From positions 6,150-70,149 of IMG/VR virus record IMGVR_UViG_3300031867_000025: 64,000 nt of DNA. The stretch is one strand, 5' to 3'. The notes under the pieces are model-generated. The model had not been told where the DNA came from and made no database searches. It saw nothing but the letters and a program-made list of their open reading frames with translations. This DNA is from a virus. Numbering within the stretch: the stretch's first letter is position 1; every line of letters begins with the position of its first letter. This document shows positions 50,290 to 50,660 of the stretch, one piece after another. The position numbers and the translations under genes were made by a program.

Positions 50290-50660
50290 TGGGTGTTGGA
50301 CTTCTGTGAACGCGCCGTTAGTTCAAACTAACTAACTTTAGTTAAGACTAACTAACATTAGTTCAAACTAACTAACATTAGTTTAAACTAACTAATATTA
50401 GTTAGTCTTAACTAACTTTAGTTGTAATTAACTAACATTAGTTTAAACTAACTAATATTAGTTAAGGCTAACTAACTTTAGTTGTAATTAACTAATATTA
50501 GTTCAGACTAACTAATTTTAATTATAACTAACTAAAGTTAGTTAGCCTTAACTAACTTTAGTTCAGGCTAACTAAAGTTAGTTCAAACTAACTAACTTTA
50601 GTTAGCCTGAACTAAAGTTAGTTAAGGCTAACTAACTTCGATAAGTTTAGACTAACCCGC
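50290..50660. repeat. Array of about 17 tandem 21-bp TTAGTTyArACTAACTAAC units
   Basis: Directly visible. The units are contiguous with no spacers. Smaller arrays of the same unit lie at 47440-47500, 48480-48580, 49545-49650 and 52060-52290. Confidence 0.7.

What the first reader, a model, noticed from the sequence alone, without database searches (positions are those of the whole stretch)
50290..50660. Contiguous arrays of a 21-bp TAACTAAC/GTTAGTT unit (about 17 copies here, smaller arrays at five other intergenic sites)
The unit is TTAGTTyArACTAACTAAC with a 21-bp period, two helical turns. The copies are contiguous and have no unique spacers, so the array is not a CRISPR. The same half-sites (CTAACT/AGTTAG) form the operator palindromes near the promoters. 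The arrays look like high-density binding platforms for a phage DNA-binding protein, acting as a centromere or parS-like site, an iteron array, a transcription-factor sink, or a phase-variation locus. Their copy number likely varies between isolates.
Basis: seen in the sequence. Interest (0 to 1): 0.65.

Follow-up and report, generated by a model that had tools for sequence, protein, structure and literature searches.

The report
Phage arrays of DtxR-type operator sites
Between its early genes, a gut or rumen phage carries head-to-tail runs of up to 16 copies of a 20-bp protein-binding site whose sequence and spacing match the sites a bacterial iron-sensing repressor uses at iron-uptake genes, so the phage may soak up or listen to that host regulator.

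Summary
The repeat is real, but some details differ. It spans 50318-50638, the period is 20 bp (not 21), and there are 16.0 copies. Each unit is TTAGTT-N6-AACTAA-NN. The half-sites are almost invariant (2 changes in 208 positions) and the spacers vary freely (50 in 112), which points to a binding site for a protein dimer.

GTTAG-N6-CTAAC occurs 34 times in the window against 0.04 expected. All 34 lie in a 13-kb early-gene block that holds about 30 consensus sigma-70 promoters. A second array (52064-52284) has 11 units, and four smaller arrays have 2-3.

A 99%-identical genome from another assembly has 13 units instead of 16, an exact 60-bp difference, so copy number does vary.

The motif also recurs elsewhere with the same 20-bp phasing:
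- in about 35 related phage contigs, with up to 24 units;
- in the inverted terminal repeats of an unrelated 13-kb protein-primed phage;
- as three tandem sites upstream of bacterial feoA genes, next to DtxR-family repressor genes.

The window's winged-helix paralogues do not track the arrays. My best reading is expandable operator arrays for a DtxR-type dimer, probably the host's, acting as a sink or regulatory platform. The binder is unproven. No such arrays were found in cultured phages or plasmids.

The parts
50318..50638 (.). Array A: 16 contiguous 20-bp units, TTAGTT-N6-AACTAA-NN
   Evidence: TRF gives period 20, 16.0 copies. It contains a palindrome with 58-nt arms, 93% complementary (50526-50583 / 50590-50647). 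L059 has 13 units here.
50639..50657 (.). Degenerate terminal unit (TCGATAAGTTTAGACTAAC) that caps the array next to the terminator
   Evidence: Read. The same cap follows the small arrays at 48538-48557 and 49608-49627.
50282..50316 (.). G+C-rich hairpin (GGCGCG...CGCGCC) between array A and the promoter-proximal sites
   Evidence: Read. Hairpins of different sequence sit at the same position in the paralogous modules.
50246..50281 (.). Two tandem GTTAG-N6-CTAAC sites, 20 bp apart, proximal to promoter P50139
50215..50232 (.). AACTAAC-N4-GTTAGTT palindrome (a junction-type arrangement of the same half-sites)
50159..50180 (.). CAGAATATTCTG palindrome with flanks, resembling a CodY box (AATTTTCWGAAAATT)
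50111..50139 (-). Early promoter TTGACA-17-TATACT that drives gene 49652-50080
49652..50080 (-). 142-aa early gene downstream of array A, function unknown
   Evidence: ORF. No Pfam or PHROG hit. The exact protein is found on only two contigs.
50670..50691 (-). Intrinsic terminator of the upstream gene (50693-50887), immediately before array A in the direction of transcription
52064..52284 (.). Array B: about 11 units in both orientations, directly upstream of promoter P52004
   Evidence: TRF. Perfect 49-nt inverted arms at 52163-52211 / 52236-52284. CAGAATATTCTG lies on both sides, at 52030-52041 and 52307-52318.
52368..52423 (.). Three tandem GTTAG-N6-CTAAC sites next to a G+C-rich hairpin
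49550..49607 (.). Small array, 2.9 units, upstream of P49367
48500..48559 (.). Small array, about 2 units, upstream of P48313
47449..47495 (.). Small array, 2 perfect units, upstream of P47311
46335..46370 (.). Two tandem sites upstream of P46293
47353..47388 (.). Two tandem sites upstream of P47311
39161..39225 (.). Three irregularly spaced sites at the far end of the early block
40274..40289 (.). Single operator GTTAGTTGCAACTAAC followed by TGCCCGGGCGAATT.TC.GA (class I module). Similar single sites lie at 39579, 40925, 42021, 43344, 43720 and 45723
40332..40682 (-). Winged-helix paralogue 1 (116 aa). A candidate binder, but one that comparative evidence does not support
   Evidence: AlphaFold2 pLDDT 92. 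Foldseek hits to Fur, PerR, ArsR and HxlR winged-helix domains, all with E >= 0.02. No Pfam hit.
41091..41477 (-). Winged-helix paralogue 2
42595..42945 (-). Winged-helix paralogue 3

Best explanation
Each 20-bp unit is one binding site for a dimeric winged-helix protein that reads the inverted half-sites (G)TTAG and CTAA(C) six base pairs apart. In the window's units a third half-site is offset by 4 bp. This step is shown by the sequence.

The basal form of the element is 2-3 tandem sites, plus a G+C-rich hairpin and two more sites, upstream of very strong host-type early promoters. In two modules the element has expanded to 16 and 11 units through 60-bp (three-unit) duplications or deletions and through inverted duplications. 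The turnover is shown; the mechanism is inferred.

The most likely binder is the host's two-domain DtxR-family iron-dependent repressor. This step is inferred, at about 0.45-0.5.

A single phage genome carries about 50 sites, and replication multiplies them. The arrays would therefore act as a high-capacity sink and regulatory platform. They would load holo-repressor onto the early region. That would either tune the early promoters to the host's iron status or titrate the repressor away from its own targets such as feoAB. This step is inferred, at about 0.3.
For: Site signature:
- Half-site positions show 2 changes in 208, while spacer positions show 50 in 112 (counted).
- In about 35 phage loci the gaps between successive sites are 20 bp (132 cases), 40 (41), 60 (13) and 80 (10).
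- GTTAG-N6-CTAAC occurs 34 times against 0.04 expected.

Turnover:
- The window has 16 units and L059, a 99%-identical genome, has 13.
- L039 has 8 identical units that its orthologues lack.

Link to the host repressor:
- A motif-first scan of 185,579 genomes found three tandem TTAG-N6-CTAAC sites at a 20-bp period directly upstream of feoA in six bacteria.
- A gene with PF01325 and PF02742 domains (DtxR family) is adjacent or divergent in L053, L049 and L047.
- In the protein-first test, DtxR homologues next to feo or iron genes have sites in those intergenic regions: L070 has 5 and L076 has 2.
- The DtxR consensus TTAGGTTAGCCTAACCTAA contains two TTAG-N6-CTAA dimer sites that are bound on opposite faces (PMC7762939).

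Against a phage-encoded binder:
- The window's winged-helix family is decoupled from the arrays in both directions.
- No phage protein family is specific to array-bearing loci.
- The motif occurs three times at nt 19-73 of both inverted terminal repeats of the unrelated 13-kb phage L016, which shares no protein with the window's lineage.
- The motif stays the same while a shared protein falls from 68% to 36% identity.

Other host-type boxes cluster in the same control regions:
- perfect LexA/Cheo boxes, 27 in 12 relatives;
- four tandem DnaA boxes in L002;
- CodY-like boxes, 15 against 1.8 expected.
Against: - No binding experiment exists, and the host of this phage is unknown.
- Repeated operators in phages are usually bound by phage proteins, and only part of each relative's genome was available.
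- The window's units differ from the classical 19-bp iron box. The overlapping sites are offset by 4 bp rather than 5, and the best matches have 3 mismatches.
- Phage sites conserve extra bases (AGTTAGT...ACTAACT) that host sites do not.
- Sites lie 50-500 bp upstream of the -35 element, not over the promoter as in classical DtxR repression.
- Close relatives with the same early genes lack arrays.
- The host operators were found by searching for this very motif, so some resemblance could be coincidence.
- The same regions hold other repeated palindromes that I do not recognise as host boxes (AACATCAAG..CTTGATGTT, TGTGCAA..TTGCACA). Phage-encoded regulators are therefore surely also at work.
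Confidence: 0.4

Rival explanations
1. The arrays are operators for a phage-encoded regulator. This could be one of the three winged-helix paralogues or an unidentified small early protein. The protein would polymerise along the 20-bp lattice to silence, insulate or time the very strong early promoters, much as an early-to-middle switch does.
For: - Phage operators are normally read by phage proteins.
- Three winged-helix paralogues, each with its own consensus promoter, are encoded in the same block.
- Single sites sit at fixed distances, 49-69 bp upstream of the -35, at many early promoters.
- Other palindromes that I do not recognise as host boxes are repeated in the same regions.
- Phage sites conserve bases beyond the core seen in host sites.
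Against: - The winged-helix family is present in relatives with 0-2 sites and absent from the motif-bearing phage L016.
- No other family tracks the arrays.
- The motif is unchanged across lineages whose shared proteins are only 36% identical, and across unrelated phages. That is unusual for phage regulator-operator pairs, which tend to diverge.
Confidence: 0.33
2. The arrays are replication or segregation elements. They could be iterons of one or more origins, possibly activated by transcription from the adjacent promoters. They could also be centromere-like sites that a partition protein organises into a superhelical complex.
For: - Tandem, phased repeats next to A+T-rich DNA and strong promoters.
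- Four DnaA boxes abut the 24-unit array in L002.
- In L016 the sites lie in the terminal repeats, where protein-primed origins are found.
- A 20-bp period gives a spiral arrangement like plasmid parC sites (from my own knowledge, not tested here).
Against: - No initiator, ParA, ParB, ParM or TubZ hit among the scanned window ORFs.
- No DnaA-box excess in the window.
- At least ten separate sites within 13 kb, each tied to a promoter module, is not what an origin or centromere looks like.
- No similar array in 72,556 plasmids.
Confidence: 0.12
3. The large arrays have no function of their own. They are slippage or unequal-crossover by-products of a 2-3-site operator and are tolerated because the region is non-coding.
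For: - Basal modules have 2-3 units, and only two have expanded.
- The 60-bp indel lies between identical units 4 and 7.
- L039 has 8 identical units.
- Close relatives manage without arrays.
Against: - Half-sites are conserved unit by unit while the spacers have diverged, so individual units have been kept able to bind for a long time.
- Large arrays recur independently in many lineages: L002 has 24 units, L007 more than 30, L019 has 13.
Confidence: 0.1
4. The arrays act as RNA or single-stranded DNA structures: a repetitive antitoxin-like RNA, a small RNA, or hairpins or cruciforms that serve as a signal.
For: As single-stranded DNA the array folds at -99 kcal/mol, z = -19. It contains long palindromes.
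Against: - The arrays lie after a terminator and before the next promoter, and no promoter faces into them.
- Units occur in both orientations.
- The only Rfam hits are sub-threshold microRNA-hairpin matches on both strands.
- A 20-nt unit is too short for known antitoxin repeats, and no toxin gene is adjacent.
Confidence: 0.03

Closest known systems
DtxR/IdeR iron-box operators, including the corynephage beta tox operator that is controlled by host DtxR
   Same: - Inverted TTAG / CTAA half-sites 6 bp apart for one dimer.
- Overlapping second register within the unit.
- In Clostridia and Spirochaetes, three such sites at a 20-bp period upstream of feoA, next to a DtxR-family gene.
- A phage gene placed under a host iron repressor has precedent in the tox gene (from my own knowledge).
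   Different: - 16-24 or more tandem copies instead of 1-3.
- Located well upstream of the promoters rather than over them.
- The overlapping registers are offset by 4 bp rather than 5, so the 19-bp consensus is not matched.
- Binding by DtxR has not been shown.
Injection-stop (iss) region of phage T5 and its relatives
   Same: An untranslated stretch in the earliest-expressed region of a virulent phage. It is rich in repeats, inverted repeats and palindromes, and it carries a conserved set of host-factor sites: 8 DnaA boxes (bioRxiv 10.1101/866236). The relative L002 here has 4 tandem DnaA boxes beside its array.
   Different: - A different motif and a different host factor.
- Here there are many arrays, one per promoter module, rather than one region.
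- There is no evidence for two-step injection or for a location in a terminal repeat.
Plasmid and phage centromeres and iteron control arrays built from tandem sites (R1 and pSK41 parC, omega-protein heptad arrays of pSM19035, the incA iterons of P1 that titrate RepA)
   Same: Contiguous, helically phased binding sites that load many copies of one small dimeric protein. Some double as operators, and incA is a natural titration sink. These comparisons rest on my own knowledge.
   Different: - No cognate partition or initiator gene was found in the window.
- The arrays are multiple and attached to promoters.
- No similar sequence in 72,556 plasmids.
Decoy arrays of transcription-factor sites (experimental systems)
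   Same: Tandem repeats of binding sites sequester a factor and reshape the response of its targets (PMC3322331, PMC7826281).
   Different: Those are synthetic or eukaryotic cases. My searches found no described natural phage-borne decoy array for a host repressor.

Membership tests
CRISPR array | Repeats separated by unique spacers of similar length | tested here: not met
   Units are contiguous. Only 6 + 2 variable bases lie between the conserved half-sites.
DtxR/IdeR-type operator | Inverted TTAG and CTAA half-sites separated by 6 bp (one dimer site) | tested here: met
   34 exact GTTAG-N6-CTAAC against 0.04 expected. 14 of the 16 units of array A hold such a site in one of two registers.
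DtxR/IdeR-type operator | The full 19-bp iron box TTAGGTTAGCCTAACCTAA (two dimer sites offset by 5 bp) | tested here: not met
   Only 7 matches to TTAGNTTAGNCTAANCTAA, all with 3 mismatches. The registers in the window's units are offset by 4 bp.
DtxR/IdeR-type operator | The same motif and phasing at promoters of iron genes next to a DtxR-family gene | tested here: met
   Six feoA loci carry 3 tandem sites at a 20-bp period. A DtxR-family gene is adjacent in L053, L049 and L047. The protein-first loci L070 and L076 also carry sites.
DtxR/IdeR-type operator | Metal-dependent binding by the repressor | not testable with these tools
   This needs EMSA, DAP-seq or ChIP.
Partition centromere (parS / parC / tubC) | Tandem, helically phased repeats | tested here: met
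   Period 20 bp, 16 units.
Partition centromere (parS / parC / tubC) | Adjacent genes for a partition NTPase and a centromere-binding protein | tested here: not met
   No ParA, ParM, TubZ or ParB hit among about 50 window ORFs scanned against Pfam or PHROGs. The rest of the genome is not available.
Iteron-type replication origin | Initiator gene nearby, A+T-rich unwinding element, and often DnaA boxes | tested here: inconclusive
   A+T-rich DNA is adjacent. No initiator was found. DnaA boxes are at chance level in the window but occur four in tandem in L002.
Type III toxin-antitoxin RNA repeats (ToxI-like) | Promoter-driven array of roughly 36-nt direct repeats, followed by a toxin gene | tested here: not met
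   20-bp units in both orientations. A terminator lies upstream and no promoter faces in. The next gene has its own promoter.
T5-type iss region | Untranslated repeat-rich tract with host-factor boxes inside the terminal repeat that is injected first | tested here: inconclusive
   Repeat-rich, untranslated, in the early region and carrying host-type boxes. Whether it lies in a terminal repeat, and how the DNA is injected, are unknown.
Integron attC sites | RYYYAAC ... GTTRRRY cores flanking an imperfect palindrome at cassette ends, with an integron integrase | tested here: not met
   CTAAC-hairpin-GTTAG is a superficial resemblance. However, AACTAAC and GTTAGTT do not fit the core consensus, no integrase was found, and the cassettes carry their own promoters.

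The most novel reading that the evidence does not exclude
Phages of gut and rumen Firmicutes carry expandable decoy arrays that soak up host global regulators. The main target here would be the DtxR-family iron repressor. Relatives carry arrays of LexA, DnaA and CodY-like boxes in the same control regions. An infecting and replicating genome would then derepress host iron uptake and other regulons, or read out host physiology, without encoding any protein for the purpose. Unrelated phage lineages would have arrived at the same device independently.
Probability: 0.25. Interest if true: 0.85.

Novelty: new variant of a known kind. Interest (0 to 1): 0.62.

Why it matters
If the arrays bind the host iron repressor, they would be a natural, protein-free way for a virus to rewire or eavesdrop on host metal homeostasis. 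That would be a DNA "sponge" whose strength is tuned by copy number.

Even if the binder turns out to be a phage protein, three points stand:
- The arrays define a widespread control element of uncultured gut and rumen phages that my searches found in no cultured phage and in no paper.
- The element is evolving fast.
- Such arrays break short-read assemblies, since many of them sit at contig ends.

The finding can be tested directly with EMSA or DAP-seq and by supplying the array on a plasmid.

Tried and rejected
Searches that found nothing or little:
- Megablast of 46000-54000 against 50,697 GenBank phages found no match.
- A distant search with the array found only one unverified human-faecal scaffold, MT835855.1, which has about 10 units.
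- The plasmid collection gave no match.
- Searching for relatives of the gene downstream of array A found none in JGI metagenomes or in IMG/VR.
- Two literature searches for phage-borne decoy or DtxR arrays found nothing relevant.

Interpretations considered and rejected:
- Known RNA family. Rfam gave only tRNAs at gathering thresholds and sub-threshold hairpin artefacts on the arrays.
- Coding sequence. The longest stop-free stretch is 16 codons, or 25 with TAG recoded.
- The winged-helix paralogues as cognate binder. Their fold was confirmed, but they do not co-occur with the arrays.
- A phage-encoded DtxR. No homologue was found in the window or in the held phage loci. The 21 viral contigs that do encode DtxR-family proteins have no such sites.
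- One regulated target gene. The genes downstream of arrays differ from locus to locus.
- Integron attC, type III antitoxin repeats and CRISPR. Each was rejected on anatomy.

Full report
**1. What is there**

Tandem Repeats Finder places the array at 50318-50638, with a period of 20 bp (not 21) and 16.0 copies. The consensus is TTAGTTCAAACTAACTAACT. A 60-bp super-period fits better, at 83% matches against 75%.

Read in register, each unit is TTAGTT-N6-AACTAA-NN. Positions 1-6 and 12-18 show two changes in 208 cells. Positions 7-11 and 19-20 show 50 changes in 112.

Eleven units carry a second CTAA at position 11, and three carry a second TTAG at position 5. As a result, 14 of the 16 units contain TTAG-N6-CTAA in one of two registers 4 bp apart.

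The stretch is non-coding even if TAG is read through.

**2. Context**

The window is a tailed phage:
- a portal protein and a tail protein;
- 21 tRNA genes, including one with a CUA anticodon;
- MVP-like, TROVE/vWA and Thg1 proteins, whose only GenBank phage relatives are uncultured huge phages.

On the minus strand, 39.5-53.5 kb holds 30 perfect or near-perfect TTGACA-17-TATAAT promoters. Each has a conserved leader, a small ORF and a terminator. This is an early or host-takeover type block that the host RNA polymerase would read.

All 34 exact GTTAG-N6-CTAAC sites (0.04 expected) lie within 39180-52423. Sixteen of the 30 promoters have a site within 200 bp upstream, and the site centres often lie 49-69 bp upstream of the -35.

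The regulatory modules are paralogous. In the direction of transcription they run:
1. terminator;
2. array with a degenerate cap unit;
3. G+C-rich hairpin;
4. two tandem sites;
5. a CAGAATATTCTG (CodY-like) palindrome;
6. an A+T-rich tract;
7. promoter.

Basal modules carry 2-3 units (47449, 48500, 49550). Two modules have expanded: array A to 16 units and array B (52064-52284) to about 11.

**3. The array is real and it changes**

A contig from a different assembly (L059) is 99.2-99.6% identical over 6.4 kb, with 37 mismatches, so it is a different genome. It has the same array with 13 units. The difference is exactly 60 bp, and it lies between units 4 and 7, which are identical.

L059 comes from an assembly whose contig names indicate k = 141. 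The shared stretch between those units is only about 27 bp. Collapse by the assembler therefore looks unlikely; this last point is inference.

Both arrays also contain long internal palindromes, with 58-nt arms at 93% and 49-nt arms at 100%. They have therefore grown by inverted as well as direct duplication.

In an orthologous region of five related contigs, one (L039) has eight identical extra units.

**4. Distribution**

The pattern (TTAG-N6-CTAAC-N5)x2-TTAG has 22 specified bases. It hit 32 stretches of viral contigs and 25 of bacterial genome contigs.

About 35 of these stretches belong to phages that share early proteins with the window. Their arrays reach 24 units in L002, more than 30 in L007 and 13 in L019.

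In these phage loci the gaps between successive sites are 20 bp (132 cases), 40 (41), 60 (13) and 80 (10). The site logo is AGTTAGTnnnnACTAACT. The motif does not change while a shared HAD-like protein falls from 68% to 36% identity.

Only one GenBank phage record, an unverified faecal scaffold, has such an array. No plasmid has one.

**5. Who binds? The phage candidates**

The AlphaFold2 model has pLDDT 92. Foldseek hits are to the winged-helix domains of Fur/PerR, ArsR/SmtB, HxlR and TubR, all with E >= 0.02. There is no Pfam hit, and the homologues come only from metagenomes.

They do not track the arrays:
- Relatives L060 and L065-L067 have 2-3 paralogues but only 0-1 sites in 11-20 kb.
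- L062-L064 have 1-2 sites.
- No enriched palindrome of any other kind appears in those loci.
- No protein family is both common in array-bearing loci and absent from array-less ones.
- The genes downstream of arrays differ from locus to locus.

**6. Who binds? The host candidate**

Six of the bacterial hits, from Lachnospiraceae, Anaerotruncus, Anaerostipes, other Clostridia and a spirochaete, have three tandem TTAG-N6-CTAAC sites at a 20-bp period directly upstream of feoA. In three of them a 120-132-aa DtxR-family gene (PF01325 plus PF02742) is adjacent or divergent. Another hit lies upstream of a flavodoxin gene.

I then ran the test the other way, choosing DtxR homologues by protein similarity only:
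- The one next to feoA-feoA-feoB (L070) has five sites in 10 kb, all in feo or DUF3793 intergenic regions.
- L076 has two sites, upstream of a Fur operon and of a DUF2325 gene.
- Two homologues with no neighbouring iron genes have none.

The classical DtxR box TTAGGTTAGCCTAACCTAA is bound by two dimers on opposite faces (PMC7762939). Read that way, it consists of two TTAG-N6-CTAA sites 5 bp apart. The phage site therefore has the half-sites, the spacing and the 20-bp tandem phasing of a DtxR-family operator. The window's 18-bp unit, with its 4-bp offset, does not match the full 19-bp box.

**7. An independent lineage**

L016 is a complete 13,069-bp linear contig with inverted terminal repeats. 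Its 705-aa protein carries polymerase-B motifs (FDIEVSS, YTDTDS), and it also encodes an SSB and a CHAP lysin. It carries three sites at nt 19-73 of both ends.

L016 and its group (L018, L022, L023, L042, L056/L058) share no protein with the window's lineage in the held sequence. Their only link to the other phage loci is a portal-like match to L017. They also lack the winged-helix family.

Some of them also carry a LexA-like box (L018) or CAGAATATTCTG (L022, L023) beside the sites.

**8. A wider pattern**

The same control regions hold clusters of other boxes:
- exact LexA/Cheo boxes CGAAC-N4-GTTCG, 27 in 12 relatives, usually about 100 bp from an array and three in tandem in L015;
- four tandem perfect DnaA boxes next to the 24-unit array of L002;
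- CodY-like boxes, 15 against 1.8 expected in the window;
- CAGAATATTCTG repeated four times at a 35-bp period in L004 and L028.

Palindromes that I do not recognise as host boxes are also repeated there. Phage regulators are therefore certainly present as well.

**9. Interpretation**

Shown:
- The arrays are tandem sites for a dimeric protein.
- The sites are under purifying selection unit by unit.
- They are attached to early-promoter modules.
- They are expanding and contracting.

Inferred:
- The binder is a DtxR-type dimer, most likely the host's.
- With about 50 sites per genome, the arrays work as a sink or a loading platform, either sensing or titrating the iron repressor.

At 20 bp per site, successive dimers would rotate by about -34 degrees. 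A 16-unit array would therefore trace roughly one and a half left-handed superhelical turns instead of sitting on one face (arithmetic from 10.5 bp per turn).

The main rival is an unidentified phage-encoded regulator that silences or times the early promoters. Origin, centromere, neutral-slippage and RNA readings are less likely, for the reasons given with each.

**10. Verdict**

The prediction of copy-number variation is confirmed. The proposed phage winged-helix binder is not supported. The element matched nothing in the cultured-phage and plasmid collections searched, and my literature searches found no description of it. It is best filed as a new variant of known kinds: operator or iteron arrays, and host-factor sites in phage early regions such as the T5 iss region. 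A more novel reading, a decoy for host regulators, remains open.

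Noticed in passing
window 39500-53500, minus strand: About 30 perfect or near-perfect TTGACA-17-TATAAT promoters lie within 14 kb. Most have a TG extension and a conserved leader (CATCAAAAGAAAGGAG), and each is followed by a small ORF and a terminator. This looks like a host-takeover early block.
   Followed up: partly
window 41512-41970 and 43131-43292, minus strand: Consensus promoters are stacked 100-170 bp apart with no ORF between them. P41970 and P43292 share the same downstream sequence. 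They may drive small RNAs.
   Followed up: no
window 49393, 50165, 52030, 52307, 52995; also 41996 and 43319: CAGAATATTCTG and AATTGTCAGAAAATT palindromes that resemble the CodY box (AATTTTCWGAAAATT) lie about 25-50 bp upstream of the -35 of many early promoters: 15 hits against 1.8 expected. In L004 and L028 the palindrome is itself repeated four times at a 35-bp period.
   Followed up: partly
window 50282-50316, 49510-49546, 48461-48497, 47400-47445, 52425-52460 and others: G+C-rich hairpins whose sequences differ between most modules, each flanked by CTAAC and GTTAG, are embedded between the arrays and the promoter-proximal sites. Their function is unknown (read-through terminator, insulator or cruciform).
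   Followed up: no
window 38200-39240: A non-coding tract lies at the switch of transcription direction, just beyond the cumulative GC-skew minimum (about 34 kb). It holds a 50-bp A+T palindrome (38330-38380), 20/39-bp repeats (38417-38549) and 21-bp repeats AAAATTGTGGAGTGAACTATA (38564-38619). It is a candidate origin or genome end.
   Followed up: no
window 13309-25419, minus strand: A cluster of 21 tRNA genes includes one with a CUA anticodon at 18220-18294 (ARAGORN calls it Pyl). It could be an amber suppressor.
   Followed up: no
window 11182-12669, 29809-34444: An RNA-repair-like gene set: a TROVE/vWA (Ro-like) protein, Thg1, a HAD domain of the 'Swiss Army Knife' RNA-repair type, and an 824-aa protein with major-vault-protein shoulder and repeat domains. 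The vault-like protein's only GenBank phage relatives are 462-735-kb uncultured phages.
   Followed up: partly
window 53704-53776: A perfect 37-bp tandem duplication (2.0 copies).
   Followed up: no
L003, L006, L009, L010, L015, L021, L024, L025, L029, L032, L033, L039: Exact LexA/Cheo boxes CGAAC-N4-GTTCG occur 27 times in these relatives, usually about 100 bp from a GTTAG array. Three are in tandem in L015 at 192-248. The window has none.
   Followed up: partly
L002 4864-4909: Four perfect DnaA boxes (TGTGGATAA) at a 12-bp period lie between the 24-unit array and a promoter.
   Followed up: partly
L016 1-90 and 12980-13069: This is a complete 13,069-bp linear contig with inverted terminal repeats of about 85 bp and a B-family polymerase. 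The three GTTAG-N6-CTAAC sites start at nt 19 of each end.
   Followed up: partly
L003, L032, L033, L010 (upstream of the 94-aa gene); L069 12059-12190: A different repeated palindrome, AACATCAAG-N-CTTGATGTT, occurs 3-5 times at a period of roughly 36-50 bp. In L039 eight GTTAG units sit at this position instead. TGTGCAA-N-TTGCACA palindromes lie next to the promoters.
   Followed up: no
L053, L049, L047, L070, L076: The 120-132-aa DtxR-family regulators of Clostridia have Asn where DtxR has Met10, but they keep the Cys/Glu/His of the iron-type primary metal site. Their inferred operator is GTTAG-N6-CTAAC, often three in tandem, at feoA, DUF3793, DUF2325 and Fur-operon promoters.
   Followed up: partly
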